From Nemertoderma westbladi (taxonomy: Eukaryota > Animalia > Xenacoelomorpha), in assembly GCA_032718475.1 (NCBI GenBank), contig JAUCBJ010006842.1, positions 265,980 through 329,979 of the forward strand: a stretch of 64,000 nt of DNA, given 5' to 3'. Below, one piece after another: positions 16,397-63,576 of this stretch. The notes beneath the pieces are model-generated. The model saw only the letters and a program-made list of their open reading frames with translations, was not told the DNA's origin and did not search any database. The position numbers were made by a program, and so were the translations under genes. Positions within the stretch are counted from its first letter, which is position 1; every line of letters begins with the position of its first letter.

Positions 16397-16563
16397 GGAT
16401 TTTTTTTCTTCCTGGTTGCTGCTGCTGGTTATAGACTTGTTACTTGTTACTTGTACCGTCAGACTGTTGGGCGTAGATAATCGATTGTTGGTTATCGGTA
16501 AACTGGCTGACTTTGGACTTGTACCGGTAATATCAAGCATTCAGACAGTCAGCGAGTCAGGGT

Positions 16564-18309
16564 ATGACAGACGTTTTTGGATTCGAGAACGATAGCGATA
16601 GTACCGGTAGTAGATGCGGAGGGTCTGACCAAACGCAAATAGCCGTCGGTCCAAGAGAAGAATCAAGTTGGACGGACATAAACTTAAATAGTCCGGCGGT
16701 TGTCGTTCCTGGTTCCGGTTGCGACCGTCCTAGATATTCTGAAACGCAGTCTCACAGTAGGAATCGGTTTCCTGCAGTACCGGTACCAGGAGAAGGGGAC
16801 GATTACATACATCCTAATAGAGAGCAGCAAGGTACTGATACCTGTATACAGCTTGAATGCGACGCACCGATAATGGCGGATATCAGGAAGGAACCGGAAA
16901 TATTCGATGGGCGTGGAGATGTTGATTCCTGGGTTAGTGCATTACAGCGATTGGGACGTCTTCGAAGATGGAATTACGTGATGATGGGAAGGGTTGCTTC
17001 CATTTATGTGTCAGGTACCGCGGCTCGCGTAATAGAAGAATTACCTACTGAACAACAAGTCGATTTTGATAGCGTAGTAGCCGCTCTGCGAGCTAGATTT
17101 AGGCCTTTACCCCCCGAGGTTATATGTAGTAAGCTGTTAGATTGTAGGCTTGGAATAAATGAAACTATAGAGGAGTATGTAGATAAACTCCAGAAATGGG
17201 GACAGCAAGCCTGGGTAGATATGAATGGTGCGCAACGAGATCGGTTATTACTTACAGTTTTTTACAGAGGCATACCCTCTGATTTGGCTTTTAGGATTAG
17301 AAACAGCCATCCGCAATCGTTTGACGAGGCTTTACGTATGGCGCGTAATGAAGAAATTTATTTAGCGGAGGCGAACCATATAAATTACGGAGATCAAGCT
17401 GGACATACTGATCGAAATACCGGCATTGATTCTAATAGGCCAAAGCATACCTTTTTGCAGGAAAGTGGTGTACATGGATATGTAAACAATACGGCGAGTT
17501 TTAATAGAAATTCTACTGTACCGAGTAGACCAGTTACCGTTGATCCAAAAATAAATAAATTAGAATGTGAGATACAAGAATTACGGAAACAAATTTCCGG
17601 TATGCAGTGCCAGCCAGCTCCTGTACGTCCGTTTACTGCATGGAATAAGAGTAGAACAGATTCTGGTCCAAACCATTCTGAAAGGAGTAGTGATACATTA
17701 GCCTACAGTAGTGGTAGACCTGTAGATAGCCCTTATTTGACTGAGCCAAGTAGGTCAATTATTCAAAGTGAACATTTTCAGGGAAGTAATAATATGACAC
17801 CCCGTAGGAATGTAACATGTTTTAACTGCAATGAATTTGGCCATTACAGTACCCAATGTCCCCAGCCGTTTGCTTCCCATAATGTTCAGCTACGGAGAGA
17901 TATTGTTTGTTTTAATTTTAATTGTAACGAGTCTGGACATTACAGTACCCATTGCCCAAGATCTCAAACATCCCGATTTAATAGATCGAGTGACGATGTG
18001 AGACGTACTTATCCATACAGACCGAGACCTTCCCCACTTAGTACTGGTAGCAATATGTGTCAGCCATCCCAATATGTGCCACACCCTACTCCACCGCCCA
18101 GTAGGTTTAGTACGGATGCTGGTACACCGGCTTCGAGTTTTGAAAATAATCACATACGGTATACAACGCATACGAATCGCGATTGGTACATACCTATACA
18201 TATAGGACGTACAAAGATGGTTGGTTTGGTAGATAGCGGTTCAGATTTTACTATAATGGATATACGTAAATTACCAAAGGATTGTGAACTGGGAGCCAGT
18301 AGTATACCA
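16564..18309 (+). CDS. gag: Gypsy Gag plus N-terminal half of the aspartic protease, interrupted by a LINE
   Basis: Capsid-like PEIFDGRGDVDSW; two CCHC knuckles (CFNCNEFGHYSTQC, and a second with a 6-bp duplication); protease LVDSGSDFT. The ORF track runs on into LINE sequence to 18345. Confidence 0.92.
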
Positions 18310-18310
18310 T

Positions 18311-21300: not shown

Positions 21301-21868
21301 GCATTGGAGGGGCGCTTTGTACCTGCGAGTACCGTCCATAGTCACAACACGCGGTTCGCCTCTAGGGGAAATTTCTGGGTACCTTCTGTTAGGCTTCAAG
21401 TTGCCCGAAGATCATTTAAATATCAAGGAACAAAACTATGGAATGAATTATCTGAAGAAATACGAAATATAAAGTCAAAAATTACTTTCTCTAAACGATT
21501 AAAATCACATCTGATGGGGTATGATTGAATAGTGGCAATATGTATCAGGGATTGCAATGCTCTCGATTTCATCCTAAGAAATTATAAAGGCATTTTATGA
21601 GTCCGGCCTGCCGGCTCTGGCTCCGGGTCCGGCTCTGGCTAATCCAGCTCATCTGTGTCGTGCGGCGCCAATGTGAACACTAATAACCAGTCTTGCTGGA
21701 TGCGCATTGTTGAGGCAGTATCTACGGTAGGCGTATTCATTAATTAATTAATGTGTATTGTATATTACGTAGTGCATTCATTATGCTGATTGACGTGGTG
21801 CCCTACACTAGCTATGCTATGGGGCCCACGTCAATCATTATGCAATCTATGGAAATAAATAAATAAAT
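18311..21868 (+). mobile_element. CR1/L2-group (Crack-like) LINE, 5'-truncated, nested in the Gypsy protease
   Basis: PHD remnant, APE endonuclease and RT; 3' stem-loop at 21787-21837; (AAAT)n tail. Removing it restores SSIP-LKIKGVGG in frame. Confidence 0.93.
18547..21528 (+). pseudogene. LINE ORF2 (APE endonuclease + reverse transcriptase) with one in-frame TAA at 19759-19761
   Basis: EN motifs HLNCRSL, FTETF, GDFNIN, PTR, CIDHF, TDH; RT motifs YRPISIL, DLKKAFD, GVPQGSILGP, FADDT. The two track ORFs share one frame. Confidence 0.93.
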
Positions 21869-22753
21869 TGAAAATTAAGGGTGTAGGAGGGTTAATGCCA
21901 GTATTAGGTGAAGTGCATCTACCGATTGTTATTACGTCAGACTTTAAAGTAGACATATTAGTGTATATTGGCGACTTACTGAAAATTGATGGTTCTGAAA
22001 TTATTTTTGGTAAAGATTTTATCTACCAAGCCTGTACCTCATTTGATTTAGTAAAGCAATGTATGATTTTACGGAATAACGAGTGTGTTTATTTTTGTAG
22101 TCCACCGACTCAGGTTATATCTAACTCAACCACAGAACACTATACTCGCCGTATAATTATGTCAGAAAAGAGGGTTACTATACCACCAGATTCACAGGCA
22201 TATATTACATGTTGTTTGAAGGGAAAGGGAAGTAATTGTAGCTTCCCAGCAGGACCAGTTTATATTGAACCTCTGTATCAGTCGAATACTCAAACCCTAC
22301 TAGCACGTTGTATTATAGATCCAATTGATAGAGAACGTGTTACATTACAAGTTTTAAACCCAAACAATTCACCAGTTACTGTTTTTAAGAACCAGAAGGT
22401 AGCATCATACTGTGACGTCACTAATTATACCTTGTGTACTTTAGAAAGTAGGGCTATCAGTACAGATAGTGTAGTTAATGATGCCAATGGTAAACAGATA
22501 TTTTTACGTGAAGAATTAAAATTAGACCATTTAGACTCTGATAAACAAGCTGATGTATTGGACATTGTTGGACAGAATCCCCATTCATTTTCTTACAATG
22601 ATTATGACATAGGACGGACTACACTGTTACAACATTCTATACCTTTGAAACCTGATGCTAAACCGATACATGTAAAGCCTTATCCAATACCCGTAGCCAT
22701 ACGTCCAGAACTGAGAGAACGGTTAAGTAATTTACAACGTGTAGGAGTTATAC
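21868..22753 (+). CDS. pol: Gypsy protease C-terminal half and pol linker, up to the second LINE insertion
   Basis: KIKGVGG...IIFGKDFI (protease), then DIGRTTLLQHSIPL...PIHVKPYPIP (start of the Gypsy RT region). Confidence 0.88.
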
Positions 22754-24812
22754 CATGGTTCGACAACGAATGTCATGATCGTAAACTACACATGCTGCAT
22801 TTGTTCTCAAAAAGGAATTTCTCTACTACTGACAAAGATATTTTCTGGGAAGCACGCCGTGAATACAAAAAACTGCTGAAATACAAACGTGAAATTTATG
22901 AGGAAGATCGCCTTCTAGAACGTATAGCTCAAACTGAAATTACACCATGGACTTTGCTGAGAGAAGGCAAACCAAACAATGTAGCACCTATACCAATGGA
23001 TAAACTTGAAACTCATTTTGAGAATCTTTTAAGTCACTTAAATGACCCGTTAAATACTCCCGACATTCCAGAAACATCAAATGATGAAACCAACAGTGAT
23101 GAATGGTATAATGTGAGTAGAAGTAGAAAATACTATTAACCACGCAGCTAACCGTAAAGCTAGCGGACCCGATCGTATTTACTAAGAACACCTTAAACAA
23201 GGCCTACCGTTTATTATTCACCTCTTAGTCCTACTTTATAACACGTGTCTCAATCTAGGCTCAATCCCAGAAGTTTGGATGTCCAGTTTCATCAAGGTTC
23301 TATACAAAGGAAAGGGTAAAATTACCAATCCAGATAATTACCGCGGCATAGCGCTTCTAAGCGTCATTCTCAAGATATTTACCTCCATTATAAACAAGCG
23401 TTTACTACTCAGACTCTTACATCGTTTACCACTAGAACAATTTGGGTTTACCCCGGGCAAATCTACAACTGACGCAATTAAGCTCCTTCTTTCCGAGATC
23501 TCGTCACTAGTTGCCTCTGAGGGACGAGTCTATGTGGCTTTCGTAGACTTTCGGAAGGCCTTCGACTCCACCAGCCGAAATATTTTCTTCCATAAACTCT
23601 ACCACGATTTCGGTGTCAAAGGGAAACTATACAACATCATCAAATCAATACTGAAAGTAAATTTCATACAAATCTATGATGGGTTACGTCTATCAAATGC
23701 AATCCGACAAATACTCGGTTTCTTACAAGGCGATTGCCTTTCTCCGACGAATTTCATCCTGTACATTGCCGACCTCGTATCTGCCCTGCGGCGCGCAATC
23801 CAGTTTCTGAAATGTATATTTTATGCCGATGATCTTGCTTTTTACTCTACCAACCCTAGGGATATTCAAGACGGTCTTAACAACCTTCACAAATGGTGCT
23901 GTGAAAACTCTACAAGTTAACCTAATAAAAACAAAGATTGTTAAGTTTAGGAAGGGTGGCCGGCTTGCTCTGTATGACAAATTCTTTTACAATGGGGAGG
24001 CTGTAACAATCTGTGACCATTACGAGTATCTGGGACTCACCCTACAACCAACTTTGACGTTCACAAAGCACATTAAAGCAAAAAAAGAAAAGGCATATTC
24101 CGCCATTGGCTCTCTTAGAAACCTGCATCTAGTTTCTGTACAAACCGGAATGAAAATATTTCAAATGAAGATTTTCCCAATGACAACGTATGCAATATCC
24201 GAGTTTGGTCCCCTGCTTACACTGCCCCAACTAAAGGAAATCGACAAAATAAAATCTACATTTATAAAACGGTTACTCGGCCTACACATCTCCTCATCCT
24301 CCACGCTCGCTTTGAAATTAATCAACGAAGAAACCTTAACTAATGACATTGTTCTTAAATTCCCAGGCATATTTAACTCAGCAATTCTAGAACAGTACAA
24401 CACTTTCAGAAACGATCGCAATGCAAATTTCAATGCAGAACAATACCAGCTGGGCCCTGCGTTCCAATCATCTAGCTGGAAACGCAGCGGCCAACGACAC
24501 CGTCACCTAGCAACAAGAACCATATCACACGGGTTTCATTTCAAGCTGTGTGAAAATAATTCCTACCACTATCCATGTATTGACTGTATATGTCGTTTCT
24601 GTCTGCAACCCGCAAAGAACCGATACCATGCCCTAGTCTGCGACAAATGCCCAACAATATCCACCTTATCCTCTCAATAACTAATTATTTTAGACCATAT
24701 ATTAATATTTTTAATAATTTATAAATTTTAGATTCCGTGCAATTTAATATATAATTACAGTACTTAGGTTTTTTACCATTTACCCCGACTGGGGGGTGTC
24801 CAGATTAATTAA
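22754..24812 (+). mobile_element. 5'-truncated LINE (RTEX-like) nested in Gypsy pol, with a 69-bp target-site duplication
   Basis: Motifs PWFDNEC, NYRGIALL, FVDFRKAFDS, LQGDCLSP, YADD, KTKIVKFRKGGRL and C-terminal CRFC...H...C; two frameshifts. 22685-22753 is repeated at 24813-24881. The clade assignment is tentative. Confidence 0.9.
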
Positions 24813-27788
24813 CAATACCCGTAGCCATACGTCCAGAACTGAGAGAACGGTTAAGTAATTTACAACGTGTAGGAGTTATACAGCCGAGTACCAGTGAATG
24901 GTCTTCTCCTCTTATTATTGTTAAGGCACCTAATAAGCCATGGCGCTTAGCTATAGACTATAGGGGACTTAATTCAGTAGCGGTTCCTCAATTTTGGCCA
25001 TTACCTAATATTGATTACATGTTAGCAGAAGTTGGTGCTGCCAGACCAGAATATTTCAGTGCATTGGATTTTAAATCCATGTTTTGGCAAGTAGAGATTA
25101 ATCCGGAGGATTATGCGAAGACCGCCTTTCATACTCAGTGGGGAAACTTTGAGTTTCGTAGAATGCCGTTTGGGCTTCAGTCATCACCCAGTACGTGTCA
25201 GAGATTAATGCAACTAGGATTAGAAGGGATATAATGTGCTTTAGTGTACATGGATGACCTGATATTGTATTCTAGAACGTGGGAACAGCACATAGAACTC
25301 ATAGATATAGTACTACGGCGTATAAGTGAGTTAGGTCTCAAATTGAAACCATCTAAATGTTGTTTTGGAGCGAGTTCAATACACTTCCTAGGACACATTA
25401 TTGATCGGGATGGTATACATACTGATCCTAAGAAAATAAGTACGATGGTCGATTTCCCCAGACCTACTTGTGTGAAGGACTTACAGAGTTTTCTGGGCCT
25501 GTGTGGATACTACAGGAAATTTGTGAGAGATTATGGCAAATTAGTACAACCATTGTATGGCCTAACTAAAGTAGGAGTGCCGTCTTACTGGAATGCAGAT
25601 TGTGAACAAGCTTTTCTAGAACTCAAGAATCGACTCGTTTCATCGCCAATTTTATCCCACCCTGACTTTGAACGAGAGTTTACCTTAGAAACTGATGCCA
25701 GTGGATCTGGACTTGGAGCGATACTTTGCCAAGACGATAAGGTTATAGCTTATGCTTCGCGTTCCCTGACTTGTGCTGAAGCTAAGTGGTCGATTACGGA
25801 ATTAGAGGGATTAGCAGTAGTTTGGGCCGTAGCTAAGTTTCGTTTTTATTTATTGGGTCGGCATTTTAAAGTGATTTCAGATCATAACCCCCTGCGATGC
25901 TTGTCTTGGGTTGGTGTCAATCGCCATATTACGGGTCGTCTCCAAAGGTGGGCACTGAAACTGTCAGAATACGATTATACTTTTATTTATAAGCCCGGAA
26001 AGTTTAACAGGGCTGATTGCTTATCCCGAATAAAGTAGAACATCCTCTAGATACGACTAACACTGTAAACAATCACAGTAACGAACTCGATGTTGAACCA
26101 TTTTGTTTAATTAATGTTCCTGTAATAAACCCTGTAGACTCTACAGACGTGACTGGAGACACAGACAATTTGATGAATAACCAATCTAATGTAGTGAATG
26201 TAGATACCGATGAACTACAAGGTCTTGTAGACTTATTTAGTTGCAATGGAACGGATTCGAAGGTTTGTAACCATGACTACCAGGATAAACAGAGTTCAGT
26301 AGCAAATGACGATGATGGATGTTCATATTACCGTGCTCCAGACACCTCAATACATGTAGATAGTTTCGCAGACGTTCAGTCTTCCTTACCTGTGTTACCT
26401 AGCAATGTGGAGTTTTGTAGTTTGTCCAGACTACGTAAACTGCAGTTGGAAGATTCAAATATTAAGGTGATGGTAGAATATTTACAAACGGGAAATAAAC
26501 CAGAATTTAATCGTAAGCTCTCTGAGTGTAAGAATATGGTAAAGTTACATACACAATATGTATTAGTAGATGGTATTCTATGTCACGTCTCGGATTGTAA
26601 GACAAATAAGACAATACAAGTAGTAGTACCTAAGTTACTACGTAGACAGGTACTACTTCAGTTCCATGACCTCAGGTCACATTTAGGAATTAATAAAACG
26701 TTGAATGACATTAAAGTAAAATTTTATTGGGTAAATCTCCGGGATGATGTAGCGCGGTACATACATAGTTGTGATCCTTGTCAACGACGTAAAGGATCTA
26801 CTTATATTCAACCATTAACTAGTTTACCAGCCCCCACCCGAGTTATGGAAAGATTATCTATTGATATCGTGAAAGGGTTTCCCACTAGTCCAACTGGTAA
26901 TAAACTTGTTTTCACTATTACAGAACATTTAACCCGATATGTTGAACTATTACCTGTCCCTGACGAACAAGCTGAAACTTTAGCCCGGGAATTGGTAAAT
27001 AAAATATTTTGTGTATACGGTGCAGCTGAGATTATTTTATCGGATAGAGGTCCAAGTTTTACTTCGTCACTTTTCTCGGAACTGGAAAAAATATTTGGCA
27101 TTGTTCGTGTGTTAACTTCAGCGTACCACCCACAATGCAATGGTCTTACTGAAAGGGTCAACCAATCCATGTGTAATATGTTAGCACTGACAACTCGTGA
27201 CCAACTCGTGGTCATGGTCGTAACCATGACAACTGGGAAGAAATGCTTCCCCTAGTACAATTTAATTATAACACTAGCGTACATTCTAGTATAGGGATGG
27301 CACCATTTACGTTGATGTTTGGTAGGGAGGCTCGTCTACCAATAGATACTCGTATTGAGCGGCCTTATAGTTTGTTGGCTGACACAGCGACATACCCTGA
27401 CGAATTACGTAAGAACTTACAAAATGCCCACAAGTTAGTTAGAGAACAACTAAGTAAAGCACAGAATAAACAAAAACGCCTCCACGATCGTAAAGTGAAA
27501 CAAAATTTGCAATCATTTGTGACAGGCGATAAAGTATTGTATTTTGATCGACGCGTTAAGCGCAAGAATAATAAGTTGCGGTTCCGTTTTACCGGACCCT
27601 ATGTAGTGCTCCGTAAGCATTCGCAGTTTTCATATGAATTACGTCCTGTACGGAAACGAGTTACACCACGAACTCCAGTGTTGGTAGTGAACGCGACAGA
27701 TTTAAAGTTATATCAAGTGCGTTCATCCGCTTGTGAAAGTAATAACCCTTCTATGTCCAATGGACAAAGTGATGTCGACACACCTTAG
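24813..27788 (+). pseudogene. pol: Gypsy pol: RT, RNase H and integrase, with a stop and frameshifts
   Basis: WRLAIDYRGLN, MPFGL, YMDD; RNase H ETDASG...ELEGLAV; integrase HHCC, SIDIV, SDRG, ERVN, GPY. TAA at 25232, frameshift near 26030, 11-bp duplication near 27191. Confidence 0.95.
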
Positions 27789-35352: not shown

Positions 35353-36025
35353 ATATCTCTGACCAGTGCATACATTTTGGAACAAAAACTACAAGAATCG
35401 ATAGAGGAAAACTCTAAGAAAACTTCTACCTCTAACCTTTAATAATTAAAATAAACAACTGAAATCGAATGCCCATAAAATCTGCTTAAGCTTAAAAAAA
35501 TAAATTTTGAAAACAAAAACCATGAATATGATATTGTTTAATTCAAAATTTGATCAATTTATGGAAGGTAGGGACATGAAGAAAGCGCCAGAATTTTAGC
35601 AAGTTTTCAAAACTGATTGCCACACATAGTATAGATAGTTAACGTATAAATATTAGTATTTTAACAGTATTAACATTCTGTTATTTTAGTCATTTTTCGA
35701 AGGAATTTATCCAAATAAAATCACGAATAGCAAAAAATTCCCATTCAAATATCTTAATTTTTCGTAAAAAATGTTACGAATTTCTGATTATGCCCATATG
35801 CTCTTTCGAATGGTCAGTATTTGATTTTTTGGTTCGTAACATAGACGAAATATTGTCAAACAAGTAATAATTCATAATAAACCTTTTTTTAATAATGCAC
35901 AAATCAAAATTTTTACATTATTCTCAAGCTGATATCACATTCAATTTTAAAATATATCATCGAATAACTGTTAATTTACATTGAACACTATTGATCACCA
36001 TTGATCACACAACTATTAATATAGT

Positions 36026-36925
36026 ATGGCAGATGTTGTTGATCTGTATGAATGTCCACGTTATGTGAGACCAATACTCGACCCTCTGTTAGAATTTGAC
36101 GACACTGAATTGCTAAGAAGATATCGCTTTGATGGTGAAACCATTCGATACATCACCGACCTTTTAGATCCCGAATTAAATGGTTATGGCACATCGTTGA
36201 ATCGTCCGATTCCAAAAATCACACAAGTCTGTATTGCACTGAGATACTTTGCATCAAACTCGTTGCAACAAAGTGTATGCGATACAATTGGTGTACACCA
36301 GAGTTCTGTGTCAAGAATTGTTGCCCAAGTAAGCAGCGCTTTGAACCAAAAAGTTCCAGAATTCGTCAAATTCCCTGTGAGCGCTGTTTCAAAACAAACA
36401 ACTCAAGCAGGATTTTTCGAAATTGCAGGATTTCCGGGAGTTGTAGCTTGCATTGATGGAACGCATATAAGAATGCCGAATCCATCGAGAGCAGACAATT
36501 CATTCATGAACAGAAAAAATTTTTACTCAATCAACGTACAAATTGCATGTGATCACAACATGAAGATTGTGAATTGCAATGCTCGTTGGCCCGGCAGTTG
36601 TCACGACTCGTGGGTGCTTCGAAATTCCGAATTATGGAATTCTTTTGAGAATGGAGACTGCACCGGAATCGTTCTCGGAGACTCCGGATATCCTTGTCGA
36701 TCTTGGTTGATGAGCCCATTTCTCAATCCTCTAACAGCTTCACAGAAACGTTATAACAAAGCACACAGGAAAACAAGGGTGCTTGTTGAGCAAACCATTG
36801 GAATTTGGAAAAGGCGCTTCAGAGTCCTGTATGATGGATGTCGGGTAATGTTGGATAGAGTTCCAAACATTATTGGAGCTTGCGCAGTTTTGCACAACAT
36901 TGCTATTGCAGTTGTTCAAGAATGA
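36026..36925 (+). CDS. Harbinger DDE transposase (HARBI1-like, DDE_Tnp_4), C-terminus probably frameshifted
   Basis: GFPGVVACIDGTHI, NRKNFYSINVQ, WPGSCHDS, LGDSGYP, RVLVEQTIGIWKRRF, CAVLHN. A plausible tail (GAAYRDHIVNTHFS) continues in another frame to ~37003. Confidence 0.93.
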   Translation: MADVVDLYECPRYVRPILDPLLEFDDTELLRRYRFDGETIRYITDLLDPELNGYGTSLNRPIPKITQVCIALRYFASNSLQQSVCDTIGVHQSSVSRIVAQVSSALNQKVPEFVKFPVSAVSKQTTQAGFFEIAGFPGVVACIDGTHIRMPNPSRADNSFMNRKNFYSINVQIACDHNMKIVNCNARWPGSCHDSWVLRNSELWNSFENGDCTGIVLGDSGYPCRSWLMSPFLNPLTASQKRYNKAHRKTRVLVEQTIGIWKRRFRVLYDGCRVMLDRVPNIIGACAVLHNIAIAVVQE

Positions 36926-41280: not shown

Positions 41281-42343
41281 ATGTACTTCACACTGCTGTC
41301 TGTGCAGTTTTATCGCAGGGCTGGGTTTGTTCCAACCTGATAAAACGGTTGTTATTTAGGGAGTAACTATATTACAATTTTCATCTTTAACATTTTATTT
41401 TGAAATAGCAGTCGCCTAAAACCAGATGCAGTGCCGACTGCATGCTATAGATCGAAAGATGGCACACTCGGAAACCTCAACCACAGGTGCAAAATATATC
41501 AAAGAACAAGAAATACTATACAATTCTATAGTACATTAGTAATCATATAGTCATATCATATAGTACATCAGTAATTTATTAAAAAATGGTTGCATATTTG
41601 AGATTAGGTGAGTTCCTTTGGATATATGGTTAGTGATCTCATAACTTGAGCGACTTTCATTTGTTTGGGGTTAGGGTTAGTGCCAAGGGGAACTTGAGTT
41701 AAAGGGAGATCCGTTGGAGTTGGGGTTACTAGAAAAGAAAAATGGTCAGATATATTATATTTTGCAAAATATGTATGTATTGTTCTAGAACATCAACATA
41801 ATGCCAAAAAAGTTCAAACAGGTGGAACCGCTGCCGAATTATTTAATATATGTAATTATGTATTGTATATATATACAAAAATAATAATACTGTTGCTTAG
41901 ATACAGGTAATAATGGCAGGTGTTGTACTATATTTACAGTGCATGTAACTGTGATAACTAGCCAGTGATAATGTAATTATTCTTTTATATACCTAATATA
42001 CACCTTTTATAATTCTGTTATAAACCATGAATAGATTTTTACTTAAAAATAATGTTTTTCGATAACATTTTTGCAAAATCAATAAACTGCCTTGGAAGGC
42101 GTCCAGACTAGGGTGGTTTCCCTCTTTTTGTAATTATAAAAATATAATTTCTTACTGTGAAAATCGATAGATTATGTGGCCAATGTTGACTCCCATGACT
42201 CCACCTAGATATTGCGTATCTACACATATATGGAATTAATATCTCGATCGTGAACTTATTGTGCCGAGGTTAATTTGATGACTACATCTGAGATTGGGTC
42301 TGTCGTCGATGCCTCAAGTATGTCGACTGAATTATCATTTTTT

Positions 42344-43443
42344 CGTAATAAAATTCCTCTATGATAATAGGGAAGTCCACAAAACATTCGACTAAATACA
42401 AATTCTGTTGGAAATTTGTTCAGTTCCACTACATTGTGCAGAGCTCGAGATTCCATTGCACATACATAATGTGATTCGGTCACTTTATATGAACACCAAA
42501 TATAAAGAAGTGACCTCCCACCCAATCCAGTCATGGCCAACAATATGTTTCCCCCACAATTTTTTGGCAACGTCAATTATTTTGTTCTTCAATGATGGTT
42601 CGGAAAAACAATTTTCAACAAAATATCGAAATGGTAGATGTGCCCCGAGTAACTTCTCAAAGGTTAATCCGATATCGGTACGTGTCCACCTTCCTCCACG
42701 TCTTCCAATGCTTCAAAGAAATTATTCAGAATGATTTCGATAGAATCTGCTGCTGAATTAAAGTTTTCAGTTACATTGCTCGGTTTTTTACTACCACCCT
42801 CTTCATTTTTTGGAACACCTCTTTGTCGTTCAAATGAAAGGTCTTCGGATGACTTTCGCTTCAGCGACATTTTCTTAGCTACAGTATAATTGTGAGGAAA
42901 ACCCCCAACTACAAACCACGGACTCCAAACCACTGTCTCAAAACCATGGACTCCAATAGCTTTAAGTAGCAATACGTAATAGTTAATGTTCTAGTGTTAT
43001 GTACAAAATTCCGTTATTGGTAAATATATTGAGGCGGTACCAAAATATTTGTTACTATATTGAATGTATGAATAGAATGAATATTACTATAATGAATGTG
43101 AGGCGTATATTATCCACATGGATAGTGATGGTGAAACTCGCAAAAAGAACAATAATTATTGATTTATTAATGATGATACATATTTAAATAATTAATTAAT
43201 CTAGATCCCGTAAGTGATATGCCAGGCATACTGGTGTTGTCATCTGTGGCATGGATGTACAACATATTGCATGAGAAACGTCTGATGCAGACTCTTTGCA
43301 AAACTTGCATATACATCCGCTATCCAGCCGCCAGAAGAAATAAGTTGCTTTCCTTGTAAAGTTAGCAATGCAAATCAACTAATTACTATAATTAAACTAT
43401 GATTAGAAATATTAGTTTCTGTGGGAACTCAATTCAGCTAATC
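42344..43443 (-). repeat. Arm A of an inverted duplication carrying an unidentified decayed ORF
   Basis: Reverse-complement match to 45486-46258, apart from an insertion at ~43053-43380. Confidence 0.9.
43053..43380 (-). mobile_element. 3' fragment of an RTEX-like LINE inserted in arm A
   Basis: Absent from arm B. Encodes CICKFCKESASDVSHAICC, similar to CICRFCLQPAKNRYHALVC of the LINE at 22754-24812. Confidence 0.6.
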
Positions 43444-44119
43444 TACCTACATTATAAGCACAGGTAATACTTGTTCAGATCACAACCATATACCGAATTT
43501 TTGGGTCTGCAGAGTTAGACCTCTAGTGTGCACTAGCGATCTTGTTGGTCTTGTTAGTCGATCTGTAAACCTTAATGCCACCAAGGTTACAAGACGAGAA
43601 CTATTTCAGCCTATATTAGATTGGAAATTGGATTGGGGACTGAGCTATTTATTGGAGCCTTTTAAATGATAAAACCTGGGAAAACAAGGTTTTGACACAT
43701 CATGTTCGTAGAAATGAAATAGTATCCAGTGATCCAATAGATGAAGGTATATATGACACCCCTCACATATTCCTCATAAAATTCAATTATCCAAATGAGG
43801 ATAAGATATTTTTAGGGACGAAAGACACACAAGACAATAATTATCATCCCATTAAAATTGTTTCAAAAAATTATCTGACTGCGTGGCGTCCGAGGTATGA
43901 AAGGAGTAAGGAAGAGGATGTGGAATGGACTCTTATTATATATAGGAAGGGATCTAGGGGTCTTAACCTCGTATGATAAGTATATTTTACCGAAAATAAC
44001 TTATCTTTTATTGGCGCAATTGTAGGACTAATCCCATCACATGCGTACTTTTTAACCGGGTAGTATACAAATTTAGGAATCGCGTAATATTTAGAAATTA
44101 ATATCTCATATCTCTCCAA

Positions 44120-44162
44120 ACCACGTACACGTTTCGACCTTACTGGGTCTCATCAGCGTGGT
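44120..44162 (-). ncRNA. Minimal type I hammerhead ribozyme
   Basis: Minus strand reads ACCACG-CTGATGA-GACC-CAGTAA-GGTC-GAAAC-GT-GTA-CGTGGT: 6-bp stem I, intact CUGAUGA and GAAA core, 4-bp stem II, very short stem III, GUA cleavage triplet. Confidence 0.88.
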
Positions 44163-44222
44163 GTCGGATTCGAACCTGGGACCTCGAGGTGGAAGCCAAG
44201 ACTACAACCACTAGGCCACAGG
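44161..44222 (-). ncRNA. tRNA-derived Pol III promoter head (SINE-type, not a functional tRNA)
   Basis: Minus strand has A box TGGCCTAGTGG and B box GGTTCGAATCC at tRNA spacing; acceptor and anticodon stems pair poorly. Confidence 0.8.
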
Positions 44223-45485
44223 TTCTTGAGATATGGAGTATTAATTTCCAAGCCAGCTGCCATTTTATTAGCCCCTGATTGTTGATTATTGATAGTAACA
44301 ATGTGTTGGCAAGCTGTATTTATCGAGGTGTTTGTTATTATACATTTATTATATATAGGAAGGGATCTAGGGGTCTTGACCTCGAACGATAAGTTTATTT
44401 TACCTTTTACCTTTCATTTACACCTCGATAAATACAGCTTGCCAACACATTGTTACTATCAATAATCGAATGGACTCTTGTTATAGCCGAACCAAACACA
44501 GCAATATTCACCAGCTCTCTGAAGAAAGGCCCTAAGGTAACGTTAACTCTAGGCAATTTTTTCCAACTTATTTTTTTTTCAGTCGAAAAGAAATAATAGA
44601 GAGATAAAAATTCTAAAGCAAAATAAATAATTAAGTTATTTCTCAATTTTTACAATAATTTTATTTTTTGATAGTAGTTATGTAAGGCACTCTGGGGCAC
44701 AAGGAGCTGTCAGGCTAAAATAACCAACCATCCTATTGCAGTTTAATTTTGTCATTGATTTAATATCCATATGATGTAAGGCAATCGCTAAAATACCAAT
44801 TTACCATTACGATGATTATAAAAAATGTTATCATTGCAAAACAGTACACTTACAGAACATAACTGATTTTACAATACAGTACACTACAGTACAGTACAGT
44901 ACACTCTACAAAGTAGATGTATGTACATTTTAAGTGATTTATCTAATATCCATATAGTACAGTGTCTACATTATATTCACTAATTTTATTAATGACTCTT
45001 TTATCATATCAAAATTTGTACACCTTTTCCTGATATTTACCAGACTGACAAAATATGTCAGACTACATTAAAATTTCAACTACTTTTTTACACCGATTTA
45101 TCACAAATTAAATCATTTTCATATAATTTCGCCATGAGAATAATTGGTCAATTTCAATATCAATATTCAATTTCAATATTGCTTAAAAAATGCTTTTCCG
45201 AATAGTCCTGAATAGGACTGGCCTTTTATAAAATCAATTTTCTTTTGTGGTTACTATTCAGGTGCGGCTATTATTCAAATATTCCAGATTAGCTGCTGGT
45301 ATTATTGGGTGTTGTGATTATTCGAAGAACAAGCTCGAAATGCACTAGGCAGCGATGCCACCTGCAGGCGCAGTTTTTTTGTTCGATTCATGAAACAAAG
45401 AAATGGGTAGACTGGCAATCAAACAAGTCTCGAATATCGGGGCTCCATTTGTGATGTGCGGATGGTATGTCAGCCTATTATGCGG

Positions 45486-46258
45486 ATTAGCTGAATTGAG
45501 TTCCCACAGAAACTAATATTTATAATCATAGTTTAATTATAGTAATTAACAAATTTTTTGGTACCACCTCGATATATTTACCAATAACGGAATTTTGTAC
45601 ATAACACTACATACAACATTAGCTTTTACTTACAGCTACTTAAAGCTATTGGAGTCCGTGGTTTGGAGTCCGTGGTTTGGAGTCCGTGGTTTGGAGTCGG
45701 TGGTTTTCCTCACGGTTCTACTAGCTAAGAAAATGTCGCTGAAGTGAAAGTCATCCGAAGACCTTTCATTTGAACGACAAAGAGGTGTTCCAAAAAATGA
45801 AGAGGGTGGTAGTAAAAAACTGAGCAATGTAACTGAAAACTTTAATTCAGCAGCAGATTCTATCGAAATCATTCTGAATGATTTCTTTGAAGCATTGGAA
45901 GACGTGGAGGAAGGTGGACACGTACCGATATCGGATTAACCTTTGAGAAGTTACTCGGGGCACATCTACCATTTCGATATTTTGTTGAAAATTGTTTTTC
46001 CGAACATTCATTGAAGAAAAAAATAATTGACGTCGCCAAAAAATTGTGGGTGAAACATATTGTTGGCCATAACTGGATTGGGAGGTCACTTCTTTATATT
46101 TGGTGTTCATATAAAGTGACCGAATCACATTATGTATGTGCAATGGAATCTCGAGCTCTGCACAATGTAGTGGAACTGAACAAATTTCCAACAGAATTTC
46201 TATTTAGTCGAATGTTTTGTGGACTTCCATATTATCATAGAGGAATTGTATTACGAAA
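45486..46258 (+). repeat. Arm B of the inverted duplication
   Basis: Matches the reverse complement of 42344-43443; 14-bp TTGGAGTCCGTGGT tandem units precede the ATG at 45733. Confidence 0.9.
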
Positions 46259-46263
46259 TAAGA

Positions 46264-48346: not shown

Positions 48347-48706
48347 GGTTGCTACAGAAGACTACTAAGACTACTGTAAGGGCAGCCCTAAACATCAGCT
48401 GGAGACAACACATGACAAACTCTATTGGTACTATACCCACTGTATCAACCACCCTCCATGAACGCAGATTAAGATTCAGCGGGCACTGCTGGAGAAGTAA
48501 AGAGGAGGTCATACCAGATCTGCTTTCTGGGAAACCAACACATGGAAAGCGTACCCGTGGATGACCTATATATAATATATATAGACCAACTTGAAAGGGG
48601 TACTGAACTGGAGAGAAACGAAATTGCGACAACTATGGAGAATCGGGAAGCCTGGAAGGATCTCATTTCCACTGTCCAAGTTCGCTCGACCTAATAGTAG
48701 TAGTAG
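48347..48706 (+). mobile_element. RTE family A 3' fragment with (TAG)n tail
   Basis: Matches 780-1160 and ends GCTCGACCTAATAGTAGTAGTAG. Confidence 0.9.
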
Positions 48707-49632
48707 CTATTTTAATCTGAACGACAGACTACACTACCTGAAGAGGATGATGCCTAAGGCTCTCAGTGCTGTTCATGTTCAACTAATTTTGTAGTGACAA
48801 ATTAACTAAACCCAAATAAATAAATATAAATGACAGACAGTTATCAGACAGTTAACTAATTATTGCCAGGTTAACCAATTTTGAGGAGTTTATTTAAATA
48901 ATAGTTCAACTATTCGATAATTCAACTAAAACTTAACTAAATACCAAAATTTGAATATTTCAAGTAACCATAGTACAGTTGTTATTGACGTTTCGCAACA
49001 CCCCACAAAATATATTGAGTATATGGCTTTTCATATGATTAGCACAATGTTAACTTAACAATGGGTGCTATTACTTGTTATTGTTTACAAAGTATTCTAT
49101 CAAGACTCTCAACGAGATGGTTCAGAACAGTCAAAGGACAAGGGGACATTAAAAAAAAACCGTCAATCAAACAAACAAACATCAAACGTTTAGAGAACTT
49201 GAAAATTATTTATTTATTGCAATAAAGGCTTAATGTATTTATTAGAAAATAAGGAATTTTGCAGGTTTACACCGTGAGTGGGACTTACTAAATTTGAAAC
49301 TTGTTAGGTACACTGGCTCAGAGGGATCCTGCTTTCAGCTTTCGGAATGTGTTCGATTTTCGTTTAAAGTCAACTATTAAAAAAACAGTTAACTAACTAA
49401 ATTCGCAGTGAAAAGTTAAATAAAACCACTTGAACTAAATAACATCAAATGTGAACTTAACTAGTTAAACAGCACTGGCCTAAGGCAAATGAATATGTTG
49501 CATTGCTGCAGTTAGTACTGTTACGATTTATATTGTTATTACAGATCTTTATAATACATGGAAATTATAATCTAACTAATGTAAATATAAAATAAGAATA
49601 ATATGTAGGCCTAAGCACTTTTATTTTGTGAA

Positions 49633-49945
49633 GCAAGCAAACAGTCGACTGAAGCCGGAGGCGAGCGGAAGAGGCTCCTCTTTCGATAGCTACTACATGA
49701 AGGGGTGGGCGCTACTCCTATCCCAAGATTTTCTCCCAGTTATTTCAGTAGTACTCATTTTATAGACCCCAGTGGATGAAAGGCTGAGTGAACCCTGGTG
49801 GGGCAGAACCTACAACCAATAGATTGCAGGCCCGGCGCTCAACCAACTGTGCTACCCAGGCTGAGTGAACCCTGGTAGGGCAGAACCTACAACCAATAGA
49901 TTGCAGGCCCGGCGCTCAACCAACTGAGCTACCCGGCCGTCCATG
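49633..49945 (-). mobile_element. tRNA-derived SINE with duplicated head and conserved central domain (Deu/Nin-like)
   Basis: Minus strand has A box GGTAGCTCAGTTGG, then GGTTCACTCAGCCTTTCATCC...TAAAATGAGTAC. 11-bp TSD TATTTTGTGAA at 49622 and 49946. Confidence 0.82.
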
Positions 49946-50628
49946 TATTTTGTGAATGGACTATATTTCATGAACTATCCATATCTGTAATCCATACACC
50001 ACTTGCAAGGTCAACAGTGTGGTTTATTAATTATGGGCAAAATGAAATTGGTTATAGCGATATTTAATTAATAGGACAACCACCAAATTCAAGAAGTGAG
50101 GTTTAAATGATTTCATGGGATGAAAACTCATAATATGAACATAAAAGTTGATTGGCCCATGTACTATACTGTGATCTTTATTACAATGATGCAGTTTGTT
50201 CTACTCTCCCTACTATTGAATACAGTTGCTTATTTTATTTCTAAAATGTATTTGTATATAATGTACTATAACAGTATGATAATACTCTCCACAGCGAAAT
50301 CGACTCCATAGCGAGATCGTCAACCGACTCTATTAAACCTAGGTTTCAAAATTCCGGTTATCATCTGCCGGGTGTGTGTGTCTATGACAAATTAGGTACC
50401 ACGGTGGATGAAGAATTTATTCGCTATGGAGTGGGCTCATATTTTGGCCTTTTTCCTAATCACTTTCTATTACATTAAATAAACTTAATTCACCGTCACT
50501 CTACCCCACAACAATTTATTTATTATTATTAAAATTTATTTGTGGTTGCATTGGCCTAGAATCTAAAAACTATTATTGATATAATAACTAATATATTTGC
50601 TGAAATACATTTTGTGCAGAATATAACT

Positions 50629-51618
50629 ATGACGCATAATGTGAACTGTAGCCAAAGCAATGGAGTGCCAGTAGTTTCACTTTATTTGCAGTTGCCGTTC
50701 ATAATCACAACCATACTTTCCATTGTAACCATAGCTCTCAATGGTATCATATTTGTTAGTTATATCATCAACCGCGATATCCGCAACAACCAATCCAACC
50801 TGCTGGTAGCTAACTTGGCTGCGGCTGGACTACTAGAAGGTGTTATTGTACTACCTGCACACGCAATGATGCATAATATCAATTCCAATTTTGAATTTAT
50901 GTATTATGAAGTGTTGTATACGATTATTCTGGAATTAGACAATCTCATTTATATTGTCCATCTTACAAGTTTGGTATTATTCTCTTTTGAAAGATATTTA
51001 TTCATTGCACACCCATTTACTTACAACAAACATTTTAGCAAAGAATTTATATATCATGTAGTTATTGGTGTCTGGCTCATTTTGTGCATTTATATTTGTT
51101 TTAAAGTCTTGGTGGTTAATTTAAACGTGTTTGGGACTGCTGAATGTGGTAACAACAATGATGGAATCAAGAATAATTCCACTATGGCATACGATATCAT
51201 CAGTATGTTGGTTTGGGCCTGCCTTTCCGGGGTCTGCCTGTTTGTTGCAAATGTTGCTATAATCCGAATAGTTATCCATCATGTCCGTCGGATTCGAAAC
51301 CACCCAGTAGTGCGAGACGAAGATGAGCACATCAAATCTTTCACAATTAATGGAATCGTGAATATGATATTCATCAGCTTATCAACCCTGCTGTTATGGG
51401 CACCCCACCATACTTTCCAGCTTTATTATTTAATCAATGGTTATCAGAAAAACGCCCGTGCAATGCTGAGTTACTCACGTTTGCTTGGCTACTCGAAATA
51501 TGTAACAATTTCAATTATTTGCATTCGTGACAGTGCTTTCCGTGCCACTTGCAATAACATAATTCGGTGTCGGTTTAGAGATATTGGTAAAGAACCAATG
51601 TACCGTAGAAAATCATGA
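50629..51618 (+). CDS. Rhodopsin-like (class A) 7TM GPCR, paralog of 10322-11290
   Basis: ANLAAAGLLEG, ILELDNLIYIVHL, SFERY...HPFTY, LLLWAPHH, C-terminal EPMYRRKS. First ATG at 50629; NCS sequon. Confidence 0.88.
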   Translation: MTHNVNCSQSNGVPVVSLYLQLPFIITTILSIVTIALNGIIFVSYIINRDIRNNQSNLLVANLAAAGLLEGVIVLPAHAMMHNINSNFEFMYYEVLYTIILELDNLIYIVHLTSLVLFSFERYLFIAHPFTYNKHFSKEFIYHVVIGVWLILCIYICFKVLVVNLNVFGTAECGNNNDGIKNNSTMAYDIISMLVWACLSGVCLFVANVAIIRIVIHHVRRIRNHPVVRDEDEHIKSFTINGIVNMIFISLSTLLLWAPHHTFQLYYLINGYQKNARAMLSYSRLLGYSKYVTISIICIRDSAFRATCNNIIRCRFRDIGKEPMYRRKS

Positions 51619-60653: not shown

Positions 60654-62464
60654 TCAAAGCAGCATAGCAGATGTATGTGGTGTTAAACTCTTTCCTCGCC
60701 ACAACCGCGTATCAGTACCCACTGTCTTAAACCACTTCTCAACCCAATCAGCTACATCACGGAGAAAGGTAGGTTTATTGTTGCCAGCCACTACAGCATT
60801 ACCCAGATAATTAGACTGGTGGAATCGTTGCTTGGAATTATTTATGACCCACCAGTCATTAATGAGTCTAAGAAACTGAGCTGTGGGATATCGATTCGGA
60901 AAATATCTCTCCAATGCCGCGCTGGTTGATTCATTGAATATTGCTAGGGCAATAGGAACGGATTGTTTGTTGTTGCCAGGATGCACAGCTTGGTATGTGA
61001 GCTGTTTGGCCATGCGTAAATGAGCATCCAATTGGAAATCTCGGTCATAAAGATCTAGAAGATCTTTCCAATGGCAGCTACCTTCAGTAACACAAATTGT
61101 ATCTTTGAAGGCAGTAAATATGAATTCAGGAAAGCTAAAATGTTTTCCATTTGCAAGGCTATTGCGGATGTTCTTTATAATATGTACAGGATCGTATAGT
61201 AAACAGATCTTCATTCCATTGTAATAAATAATGCGATTCTTCTCGTCATTGTCATTTGATCCAGCACGGCCAAAGCGAGTATACAACTTAGTATTAATGG
61301 GTGAATCATCACAACCAATAGCACGAATGTGCAATTTAGCATCACATACATCTTTCATTACCGACACAAATTCATCCACTAGCCAAACTGATGTTGCTGA
61401 TATGACTGGCACAGCACGAACCACATAGGATTTTCCGTGTTTGGCACCCACTATCATGAAACATACAATTGCTTTGAACATGTTACCATCATCATCTACG
61501 CCAACAAATTCGCCCTGACTATAAGATGCCTCCATCTGTAACTTCATCTCATCACATACCAATGTGACATCGGCATCAAACAAACCATCCTCCACCATTC
61601 GGTGCAATGCTTTCATACTGTCAACGCCTCCCTTTTGCAGTTTATTTAGAAGTGTAAGGGATGGTAACTGAATTTCCCTTTTAAGCAGAGTATACGCCTG
61701 ATAGGAAGTGTAACATAACTTTAATGCGAATTGTATAACGGTATGAGAATAAGGAGGGCGAGCATACTTTGAGTAATATTGGTGATGGAAAACCTCATCG
61801 AAAACTGCTGAGTATTTATACTGAGAAATATTTCTTAAATAAACAGCAAAGTTTCAATCTGGGTTGCATTTGTAATCTTACAGATAGATGTTTTACTAAA
61901 CCAAATGGGTAAAGGAACTGGATGCTGGGTAAGTTCTAATTTAACGTGTAAATCTGAAGTAATCTTTATAACTCCATGTAAACTTGGCATACCACTACCT
62001 CCACAGAAATCCAGTTCATACATCAATACTCGATCTGCAGTTTTGTCAAAATGGTAACCAGTTGGACAAAAATCCTCAGTGATATCAGACAAACATGAGA
62101 CGGCATATCGATTGCTAAATTCAGCAAGTTGATTCTGCTGAAATGGGCGATCAATAGGCTCTCGCCGAGGCCGCTTGACTGAAGGCACCATGGATGGCAG
62201 TGTATCAGTAACAGCAGGAATGGTTGGAATAGGCGACAATGACCAATCGAGTAGCATCTTTCCCGTAGCTATAGTCTTGAGATATTGCTTCTCGAAATGA
62301 TCGATACAAACACGGGAATTAGGTGTTGCTTCAAAGTCTTTCCTATTTACAAAAGCCATCCATCTTTTACTTAGGTCCCGCCCCAAAGGAAACTGGAAGC
62401 TCGCTTTTTTTTCCACACCAACATAACCAGTCTTGCATCCAAACACAGAACATTTATTAACCAT
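60654..62464 (-). pseudogene. THAP-domain P-element transposase, frameshifted (~61850) and 3'-truncated
   Basis: THAP C2CH finger CSVFGC...FQFP...RW...VCIDHF...PIPT; then YSHTVIQFALKL...LPS, CDEMKL, GCDDSPIN, YDPVHIIKNIRN, KQSVPIALAIF. Confidence 0.9.
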
Positions 62465-63576
62465 ACATTACTTTATTACTTTATATAAGTTAACTATCAC
62501 TACCGGTATATACACTGGTATATAAGCAAAGCATATAAAGTACTGGTAGGTACCGGTACCGGTGCGGTAGGCCTATGTTTTTAATTTCAAAAGGTGTTTT
62601 TAATGAGTAATGCAATCAAAGGTACCGGTACATGCTGAATGCCATGCCATGTGCCATGACAGCATGATTGATTTTGCAGTTGGCCTACCTACAGTTAGTG
62701 GTAAGTAAATACTGCGTCAGGCAGACTGGCAGACAGAGAATTTTCTAAATCTAAAATTTAAATGGGCAAGTTTGTTCCGAGTCTAGCCGTAACATAATTA
62801 TCCTGTCAGCCTGTATGCGCGCTAGACAAGACATCTAAATGCGCGCCACACGCACTTTCGGATGCGCTCCACATGTTGAGCAAACTTCCAACCTGGGCCT
62901 TACAAAAACGTAATGCTGAAATCAGAAATGGCCTAACCCGAACACCTAAACCACATAAGGTAAACAGTACCGGTAGCTAAACGTTAAACAGGCAGTGGTA
63001 CAGTACAGGTAGGTAGAGCTTATAGAGATATACCAGTCTGCCAGTACAGCTGTACAGCATACGGCAGTATGGCTGTATGGTACCTACATCGGTTCGGTGG
63101 CTGTGGCTGTCAGCGTGTAGTAAGCTGTGACTGGAATCAGGTCTGCAGGTAATGAATGAATGGCCTTAAATTTCTAGGCCTTTTAAGGTGGCCTGTTAGG
63201 CCGTATATATAGTAGGCCATGGCATACCTAACCATGTAAATTAACTACTGATATAGAATAATTTTAAAATACTTTCAGTTTCACACACACACCACTTACC
63301 AAGCAGTGACATAACCGGTACATACTGCTTACAGTAGGCCTACTGAAATAAGAGGATTGTAAACAACTTTCATTTTTCACAAACACACATAATAGCTACA
63401 TACCGGTTACACCACTCTGGCTGCGTATTTTGACCTAGCCCTATTTAAATATTGCATGCATGCATAAAGCTGCTAAGCTGCATGACTGACATGCGAGTCA
63501 GTCATTAATAGTAAGAACTAAGTAGTGAGATTACTTGTTTTTTATTAAAATATTCCTGAGAATAGATATTGCTGTA

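What the first reader, a model, noticed from the sequence alone, without database searches (positions are those of the whole stretch)
43923..44485. tRNA-headed SINE-like element fused to a hammerhead ribozyme, with Penelope-style insertion structure
Seen on the minus strand: Pol III A and B boxes (44222-44161) run directly into a complete minimal type I hammerhead (44162-44120), whose stem I occupies the place of the tRNA 3' acceptor strand. Predicted cleavage is after GUA, between 44126 and 44125. A ~130-nt body and a ~59-nt tail follow. The tail is repeated upstream (44347-44405 vs 43933-43991), and a 48-bp upstream segment recurs inverted (44285-44332 vs 44420-44467). An 18-bp near-perfect direct repeat bounds the whole. 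No ORF. Known: minimal hammerheads with a tiny stem III are typical of Penelope-like elements and retrozymes and often cleave as dimers; partial tandem plus inverted 5' pieces are typical of Penelope insertions; Schistosoma Sm-alpha is a precedent for a tRNA-related repeat with a hammerhead. Inference: a Pol III-driven, self-cleaving non-autonomous retroelement mobilised by a Penelope-type RT, possibly through circular or multimeric RNA. It may be an undescribed family.
Basis: partly seen in the sequence, partly recalled or inferred. Interest (0 to 1): 0.82.

Follow-up and report, generated by a model that had tools for sequence, protein, structure and literature searches.

The report
tRNA-promoter hammerhead retrozyme, Penelope-style insertion
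This is one insertion of a very abundant, roughly 412-base non-coding repeat of what is probably an animal, in which a tRNA-type promoter motif sits directly in front of a predicted self-cutting hammerhead RNA (a design known from blood flukes), and its two fixed, outward-facing ends suggest it is likely copied by Penelope-type jumping genes.

Summary
A box, B box and a full type I hammerhead lie as described, and neither pattern arises in shuffled windows. Sequencing-run contigs show a homogeneous, very abundant family, an empty target site, and head and ribozyme linked in other copies and in a divergent relative. Three corrections. (1) The element is a circularly permuted 411-413-base unit, here 1.14 units plus an inverted arm; the tRNA part is internal, not a SINE head. 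(2) The hammerhead has canonical retrozyme-type helix sizes, not those of the minimal Penelope type; the family's stem III is a perfect palindrome, pointing to dimer cleavage. Copies end at two fixed places 69 bases apart, as Penelope insertions do. Best reading: a non-autonomous retrozyme with its own Pol III promoter, mobilised by a Penelope-type enzyme from multimeric or circular RNA. Expression, cleavage and the partner enzyme were not shown. Promoter plus hammerhead is known from Schistosoma Sm-alpha. This scan has noted what looks like this family at least four times elsewhere in this genome.

The parts
43923..43940 (.). Target-site duplication, copy at the element's 3' end (12 bases exact, 17 of 18 overall)
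   Evidence: empty site joins 43922 to 44468 in runs X1 and X3
43941..44353 (-). One full unit, 413 nt here (about 411 in the family majority), 39% G+C, no ORF; its 3' end at 43941 is fixed family end 1
   Evidence: repeat spacing 413; loose ends at 43941 in 28 X1 and 25 X3 contigs with unlike flanks; composition
43976..44004 (-). Hairpin in the 3' body; the upstream partial unit breaks off at its loop; holds the unit's only T4 run (43996-43993)
   Evidence: predicted fold
44091..44114 (-). Clasp, 3' arm (continuous with the 3' strand of hammerhead stem I)
   Evidence: I2; most pair probabilities above 0.98
44115..44168 (-). Type I hammerhead: 6-bp stem I plus 5-bp extension that uses the end of the B box, 4-bp stem II with 6-nt loop, stem III of 1-2 bp with palindromic loop; predicted cut 44126/44125
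   Evidence: family majority has C (minus strand) at 44129, giving the palindrome ACGCGT
44166..44176 (-). Pol III B box motif
44208..44218 (-). Pol III A box motif, 44 nt from its first T to the T of the B-box loop (tRNA-like spacing)
44172..44225 (-). tRNA-like segment, predicted to refold as one long hairpin (44225-44219 pairs with 44178-44172); T stem and acceptor stem of a cloverleaf are lost; an anticodon-arm-like stem remains (44200-44196/44187-44183)
   Evidence: no tRNA by ARAGORN or Rfam
44228..44251 (-). Clasp, 5' arm; a few contigs end near 44248 with unlike flanks (possible RNA 5' end)
   Evidence: 5 X3 contigs, agreement 0.51
44284..44353 (-). 69-nt stretch between fixed end 1 and fixed end 2 (44285/44284), the likely equivalent of the Penelope 'tail'
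   Evidence: loose ends at 44285 (12 X1, 13 X3, 4 X5 contigs) and at its mirror 44466 (11 X1, 9 X3); distance
44354..44404 (-). 5'-truncated end of the preceding unit (partial tandem), 4 differences in 59 nt from the 3' copy
44405..44419 (.). 15-nt junction filler with a 7-nt slippage duplication
44420..44467 (+). Inverted arm, exact mirror of 44284-44331; its outer end is fixed end 2
44468..44485 (.). Target-site duplication, second copy

Best explanation
This is one insertion of an abundant 411-413-base non-coding repeat unit that likely works as a non-autonomous retrozyme with its own RNA polymerase III promoter and is likely copied into new sites by a Penelope-type reverse transcriptase. 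Shown: the anatomy, the abundance, head-to-tail closure of the unit, two fixed ends and a target duplication. Inferred cycle: (1) In arrays of two or more units, the A/B boxes of one unit drive a transcript through the next; a lone copy like this one cannot make a full unit from its own boxes. (2) Two hammerheads pair through the palindromic stem III and cut at 44126/44125; this needs an exchange of 33 base pairs between units, so cutting is probably slow or protein-helped. (3) Stem I, its extension and the clasp would hold the two cut ends together for ligation into a circle. (4) A Penelope enzyme nicks both target strands and starts copying at two fixed internal RNA sites (43941 and 44285), giving a direct copy that runs past one unit and an inverted arm. 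The template was an uncut multimer or a religated circle, because the insert crosses both the cut site and the unit junction.
For: Abundance: summed contig depth 1.1e5-8.2e5 over 43935-44393 against 29-68 in the two bins beside the left end; 3127 (X1) and 1292 (X3) contigs laid; similar to a LINE-like 3' end that recurs 3-4 times in the window. Closure: one 441-nt contig spans 43941-44377; contigs go back about 400 bases (44401 to 44001, 44404 to 44004, 44347 to 43943). Fixed ends with unlike flanks at 43941 and 44285/44466, matching the partial tandem, inverted 5' copy and one-sided tail of PLEs and the two internal RT start sites and two-strand extension of the anole PLE protein. Ribozyme under constraint: within 44120-44162 the only difference listed at 1% or more is 44129, where 99.8-99.9% of depth has the perfect palindrome; a relative in run X7 differs at 2 of 80 nt over the ribozyme but at 13-14 of 96 nt over the head, and keeps the same circular order. 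Fold: clasp domain z -6.5, rest of unit z 0.2 and -0.4; swapped dimer with 6-bp stem III -128.4 against -126.0 kcal/mol for two monomers. Independent case: L043, 1 of 53 loci from the B-box-plus-core scans, has A box, B box, type I hammerhead and the same head hairpin without blastn similarity. No poly(A) or simple-repeat 3' end.
Against: No RNA evidence at all. No autonomous partner was found: no genome is held and 0 of 119 window frames hit a GIY-YIG family. The distance between the fixed ends is 69 nt against 30-40 nt in described PLEs. The ribozyme is not the min-HHR type of PLE pLTRs. A T4 run at 43996 could end Pol III transcripts before the tail, and T runs are not depleted beyond chance. 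tRNA ancestry is not detected by Rfam or ARAGORN. Stem III has pairing probability 0.0 in the monomer and the unconstrained two-chain fold does not form it. The upper part of the head hairpin is broken by several of the X7 changes. Only 14 of 431 and 24 of 2168 loose-end rows were shown. An earlier unchecked note reports this unit joined to a LINE tail.
Confidence: 0.62

Rival explanations
1. The unit is the pseudo-LTR of a protein-coding Penelope element, and this is a truncated, ORF-less product of that element, as earlier notes concluded for similar units in another genome.
For: PLE-type ends; non-LTR retrozymes match PLE pLTRs in Xenopus (24 of 57 families hit Repbase elements, 21 of those 22 elements PLEs); unchecked notes e1-8796959, e1-10341848.
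Against: The unit closes on itself with no ORF between (441-nt contig, joints going back about 400); longest stop-free frame round the circle 86 aa; no long, high-agreement loose end among the rows shown for organism A (most rows hidden); canonical rather than minimal hammerhead.
Confidence: 0.15
2. A SINE-like element mobilised by a LINE enzyme, with the inversion made by twin priming.
For: Pol III boxes, 12-18-bp target duplication, many LINE fragments in the window; Sm-alpha is classed as SINE-like; one unchecked note of this unit joined to a LINE tail.
Against: No poly(A) or simple-repeat end; no blastn similarity to the window's LINE fragments; the outer end of the inverted arm recurs at one place in many copies, whereas twin-priming sites vary (recalled); the tRNA part is internal.
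Confidence: 0.12
3. The ribozyme and boxes are real but cutting and circles play no part: uncut read-through multimers are the only templates, and the clasp locks the hammerhead off.
For: No cluster of ends at 44125/44126 among the rows shown and no drop in depth there; in the anole PLE, uncut RNA is the main substrate and no reads end at the cut site; activation needs a 33-bp strand exchange.
Against: The ribozyme is far better conserved than the head in the X7 relative and nearly invariant in the family; similar dimer-type retrozymes of axolotl cleave and are circularised by RtcB. This reading is compatible with the Penelope step of the best explanation.
Confidence: 0.08
4. A satellite or MITE-like DNA repeat spread without an RNA step, the clasp being terminal inverted repeats.
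For: 24-nt inverted repeat; tandem form.
Against: The clasp is internal, has no flanking duplication and its outer ends are not the main family ends; 5' truncation, inverted arm and long target duplication are retro-type; ribozyme conserved.
Confidence: 0.03

Closest known systems
Sm-alpha / Sj-alpha SINE-like hammerhead repeats of Schistosoma (seen as passages in PMC6765202 and PMC2770079; the primary papers were not held or not read)
   Same: tRNA-related Pol III promoter followed by a hammerhead; many copies, tandem and single; promoter ends up at the 3' end of the cut monomer, so single copies cannot propagate.
   Different: Probably another lineage (not determined); fixed twin ends and an inverted arm of Penelope type; a 24-pair clasp; 411-413-nt unit. 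Sequence homology to Sm-alpha was not tested.
Metazoan non-LTR retrozymes (Cervera and de la Pena 2020, PMC7229834; review PMC7761336; Li, Clavereau and Pollet, bioRxiv 10.64898/2026.07.22.740005)
   Same: Unit of 150-450 bp, low G+C, no ORF, canonical type I hammerhead, long target duplication, tandem and single copies; stem III like the dimer-dependent axolotl type; proposed Penelope origin.
   Different: The review says they seem to lack promoters and the preprint has no occurrence of 'tRNA' or 'promoter'; this unit has A and B boxes. Circular RNA not shown here.
Penelope-like elements: insertion structure and PAc of Anolis (PMC11167929, PMC8557442, PMC3846280, PMC4209133)
   Same: Partial tandem, inverted 5' copy, extension on one end only, two fixed ends, hammerhead upstream of them, target duplication.
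   Different: No ORF; extension 69 nt rather than 30-40; hammerhead canonical rather than minimal; Pol III boxes rather than a TATA-type pLTR promoter.
LINE-dependent tRNA SINEs (general knowledge; an ordinary example lies at 49700-49934)
   Same: tRNA-like A and B boxes, non-coding, high copy, target duplication.
   Different: tRNA part internal, unit permuted, ribozyme present, no simple-repeat tail.

Membership tests
Sm-alpha-like promoter+hammerhead repeats | Pol III A and B boxes at tRNA spacing | tested here: met
   (0 of 200 shuffles)
Sm-alpha-like promoter+hammerhead repeats | Detectable tRNA ancestry | tested here: inconclusive
   no ARAGORN or Rfam tRNA; anticodon-arm-like stem with one two-sided change in an X7 contig (read by hand)
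Sm-alpha-like promoter+hammerhead repeats | Type I hammerhead directly behind the promoter, linked across copies | tested here: met
Sm-alpha-like promoter+hammerhead repeats | High copy, tandem and single | tested here: met
Sm-alpha-like promoter+hammerhead repeats | Pol III transcription and self-cleavage | not testable with these tools
   no RNA run on record
Sm-alpha-like promoter+hammerhead repeats | Sequence homology to Sm-alpha | not tested
   no repeat library (Dfam, Repbase) available
Metazoan non-LTR retrozymes | 150-450-bp non-coding unit, G+C under 50%, canonical type I hammerhead | tested here: met
   413 nt, 39% G+C, helices 6/4/1-2 bp (definition)
Metazoan non-LTR retrozymes | Head-to-tail repeats and target duplication longer than 4 bp | tested here: met
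Metazoan non-LTR retrozymes | No own promoter (as described in PMC7761336) | tested here: not met
   A and B box motifs present; their function is untested
Metazoan non-LTR retrozymes | Expressed as circular RNA | not testable with these tools
Non-autonomous Penelope derivatives | Partial tandem plus inverted 5' copy | tested here: met
   definition
Non-autonomous Penelope derivatives | Two fixed ends with a 30-40-bp one-sided tail | tested here: inconclusive
   two fixed ends found, but 69 nt apart
Non-autonomous Penelope derivatives | Minimal hammerhead of pLTR type (helix I 4-5 bp, helix II 7-8 bp, as described for S. mansoni PLEs) | tested here: not met
   helix I 6 bp, helix II 4 bp
Non-autonomous Penelope derivatives | Sequence shared with an autonomous PLE of the same genome | not testable with these tools
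   no genome; no GIY-YIG in 119 window frames
LINE-dependent tRNA SINE | tRNA part at the 5' end | tested here: not met
   about 128 nt of high-depth unit lie upstream
LINE-dependent tRNA SINE | Poly(A), simple-repeat or LINE-derived 3' end | tested here: not met
   (compared with this window's LINEs only)

The most novel reading that the evidence does not exclude
A recurring class of 'Penelope SINEs': Pol III-driven circular-RNA retroelements that have arisen several times in animals, in which a captured tRNA was rebuilt to serve as a promoter at the DNA level and, at the RNA level, as part of a clasp that gates dimer cleavage and holds the cut ends for circularisation, with a Penelope enzyme rather than a LINE enzyme doing the copying.
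Probability: 0.35. Interest if true: 0.72.

Novelty: new variant of a known kind. Interest (0 to 1): 0.5.

Why it matters
Reviews describe animal retrozymes as promoterless and SINEs as passengers of LINEs, with Sm-alpha as a fluke oddity. A homogeneous, very abundant family that has Pol III boxes, a dimer-type hammerhead and Penelope-type ends joins these three groups. It gives a short test substrate for open questions: what transcribes retrozymes, whether cutting and circles are needed for spread, and which RNA sites a Penelope enzyme recognises in trans (two predicted start sites are mapped here to within a base or two).

Tried and rejected
No RNA holder listed. Run X4 (RNA only by guess) as expression evidence: rejected, because it also holds other high-copy repeats of the window at like depth. 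Polymorphic (allelic) insertion: not shown; the empty-site flank differs from the window by 30 substitutions and 5 gaps over 43563-43922, so it may be a paralogue. Circle versus linear multimer from the 4 differences in 59 nt between the tandem pieces against 0 in 48 between the inverted arms: not significant (Fisher p 0.088), and decay after insertion explains it (copy about 2.5% from the X4 contig). T-run depletion as a Pol III signature: not significant in this unit or in L043. Strand from folding energy: both strands fold better than shuffles (z -4.0 and -3.6). The Rfam mir-31 hit is the inverted repeat. Other core-motif and B-box-like matches in the window (55195, 51300) lack stems. Exact or near family patterns: 0 hits in genome contigs and 0 in viral contigs; 0 of 25 viral loci with a similar stem III have A or B boxes or blastn similarity. 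Of 53 loci from the generic scans, 52 lack the full A box + B box + hammerhead set. Sequence look-up among earlier findings: none; near look-up: none. tRNA isotype: the loop reads TCC here and TTC in the X7 relative, so it is left open. The organism's lineage was not determined; 'animal' rests on rhodopsin-family receptor genes and the transposon content.

Full report
Observation. The repeat finder gives the 59-nt direct repeat (43933-43991/44346-44404, 93%, spacing 413), the 48-nt perfect inverted repeat (44284-44331/44420-44467) and the 18-nt flanking repeat (17 of 18). A hammerhead descriptor with stems hits only this place and none of 60 shuffled windows. An A+B box pair hits only this place and none of 200 shuffles. 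The bare core motif is not significant by itself. Rfam gives Hammerhead_HH9 at 25.4 bits, below its gathering score, and no tRNA; ARAGORN finds none. There is no ORF of note. The window looks like animal DNA crowded with transposons; the lineage was not determined and no genome is held.

It is a family. Eight runs were listed, none on record as RNA; five were laid. Over 43935-44393 the summed contig depth is 1.7e5-8.2e5 in X1 and 1.1e5-5.4e5 in X3 (two studies), against 29-68 in the two bins beside the left end. The tool warns that this is no copy number; it is of the same order as a LINE-like 3' end at 48377-48710 that recurs 3-4 times in this window. The family is homogeneous: within the hammerhead the only listed difference at 1% or more is 44129, where 99.8-99.9% of depth has the base that makes stem III the perfect palindrome ACGCGT. 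The window copy differs from the X4 contig at 11 places plus 6 gap positions in 437 nt. Head and ribozyme are linked in single contigs of X1, X4 and X7. The X7 relative differs at 2 of 80 nt over the ribozyme and at 13-14 of 96 nt over the head, and one of its contigs carries the unit junction 161 nt before the ribozyme piece (155 expected), so it has the same circular order.

The unit is permuted, not tRNA-headed. High depth continues about 128 nt upstream of the tRNA-like part and across the junction at 44353/44354. One 441-nt contig covers 43941-44377, which is a 411-nt unit plus a 30-nt overlap, as expected for a closed loop in a 31-mer graph (the word size of the assembly is recalled). 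Other contigs go back about 400 bases. So the '59-nt tail repeat' is the truncated end of the preceding unit, and this insertion is 1.14 units plus an inverted arm. It breaks off at the loop of a body hairpin.

Ends. Contigs leave the element with unlike flanks at 43941 (28 in X1, 25 in X3; 7 more at the equivalent 44354) and at 44285 or its mirror 44466 (12 and 11 in X1, 13 and 9 in X3, 4 in X5) (only 14 of 431 and 24 of 2168 rows were shown). Both are 3'-type ends of the RNA, 69 nt apart, facing outwards. PLE insertions show a partial tandem, an inverted 5' copy and a 30-40-bp tail on one end. The anole PLE protein cuts and extends both DNA strands and starts at two internal RNA sites that define that tail. 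The match is close in geometry and off in length. An empty site joining 43922 to 44468 occurs in X1 and X3, which confirms the target duplication. Its flank is about 8% divergent from the window (X5), so it is a paralogue or a distant allele; polymorphism is not shown. X1 holds the filled left junction without differences.

RNA structure (predicted). The stretch 44251-44091 folds far better than shuffles (z -6.5) while the rest of the unit does not (z 0.2, -0.4) (z -5.25). One clasp pair (44249-44093) is U-A in the majority and G-U here, a change on both sides, though indels next to it blur the register. An anticodon-arm-like stem survives with one two-sided change in an X7 contig, while several X7 changes break the upper part of the predicted long hairpin (read by hand). 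Helix sizes 6/4/1-2 are those called canonical for metazoan type I hammerheads, not the minimal type described for Schistosoma PLEs; one pair with a palindromic four-base loop resembles the dimer-dependent axolotl type. Stem III does not form in the monomer (probability 0.0). A swapped dimer with a 6-bp stem III is about equal in energy to two monomers (-128.4 against -126.0 kcal/mol) but needs 33 pairs to change partner.

Mechanism. Shown: anatomy, abundance, closure, fixed ends, target duplication. Inferred: Pol III transcription from the boxes of one unit through the next; dimer cleavage; ligation helped by the clasp (RtcB circularises other retrozymes in vitro); copying by a Penelope enzyme from two fixed sites. 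Because the insert crosses both the cut site and the unit junction, and runs about 150 nt upstream of where its own boxes could start, its template was an uncut multimer or a circle; the data do not tell which. As for Sm-alpha, a single copy cannot propagate from its own promoter. Against: a T4 run at 43996 must be read through; there is no RNA evidence; run X4 fails its control; no partner was found. Five X3 contigs ending at 44248 hint at RNA 5' ends at the start of the clasp; this is weak.

Wider occurrence. A scan for a B box followed by a hammerhead core gave 4 viral and 49 metagenome loci. One of the 53, L043, has A box, B box and a full type I hammerhead with a palindromic stem III, in a 1341-nt closed unit without ORF. 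Its head also folds as a long hairpin in which the bases before the A box pair with the B box, and it has no blastn similarity to this element. It is one contig, but an independent case of the same design.

Comparison and novelty. Promoter plus hammerhead is the Sm-alpha design. Size, ribozyme type and tandem form are those of non-LTR retrozymes, which a review describes as promoterless and a 2026 preprint derives from PLE pLTRs without mention of tRNA or promoters. Searches for a tRNA-promoter, Penelope-mobilised hammerhead element returned no such description; the library lacks most subscription papers, and Dfam and Repbase could not be searched. What I saw: PMC11167929 abstract and whole main text; bioRxiv 10.64898/2026.07.22.740005 abstract, passages and part 1 of 2 of Results; PMC7229834 passages and section 13; passages of PMC6765202, PMC4209133, PMC7761336, PMC8557442, PMC3846280, PMC2770079 and PMC10886601 (the last not relevant). 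Ferbeyre 1998 and Lunse 2017 were not held and are known only through reviews. No supplements were read; retrozyme consensus lists in them could include this family. Earlier unchecked notes describe 411-412-base units of the same design at four other places in this genome; they are probably this family, though the sequence look-up found no match. They are not counted as support.

Verdict. A real, well-delimited element: a new variant joining the Sm-alpha design with Penelope-type integration. Interest 0.5.

Noticed in passing
L001:528-594 (= L079), L012:424-480, L014:1267-1201 (minus), L083: In four distinct phage-like tRNA arrays a type I hammerhead sits directly before tRNA-His, and its predicted cut leaves exactly one base (the -1 position; G in three, U in one) before ARAGORN's position 1; in three the ribozyme follows the 3' end of another tRNA. 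A targeted viral scan gave 18 loci, 2 with tRNA-His so placed. It may be RNase P-independent 5' processing of tRNA-His.
   Followed up: partly
L043:1-1468: A 1341-nt closed unit with A box, B box and type I hammerhead, internal tandem repeats and telomere-like C-rich repeats upstream of the ribozyme.
   Followed up: partly
window 42338-46261: The element sits inside a large inverted repeat (42338-43086/45514-46261, 93%; 43380-43443/45485-45548, 98%), a foldback-like low-copy element.
   Followed up: partly
window 49700-49934 (minus): An ordinary tRNA-headed SINE-like repeat with its 77-nt head duplicated in tandem; high depth in X1 and X3.
   Followed up: partly
window 10238-11290 and 50560-51618: Two intronless rhodopsin-family receptor frames, 70% alike in DNA.
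   Followed up: no
window 16531-27788: A Gypsy-type LTR element (gag, pol, integrase) interrupted by two LINE insertions; also a DDE transposase at 36020-36925 and a THAP/P-like transposase at 60654-62467.
   Followed up: no
L010:3001-3042, L031/L038:3001-3055: Minimal hammerhead-like motifs with palindromic stem III behind a B-box-like word but without an A box, in AT-rich, eukaryote-like contigs.
   Followed up: no
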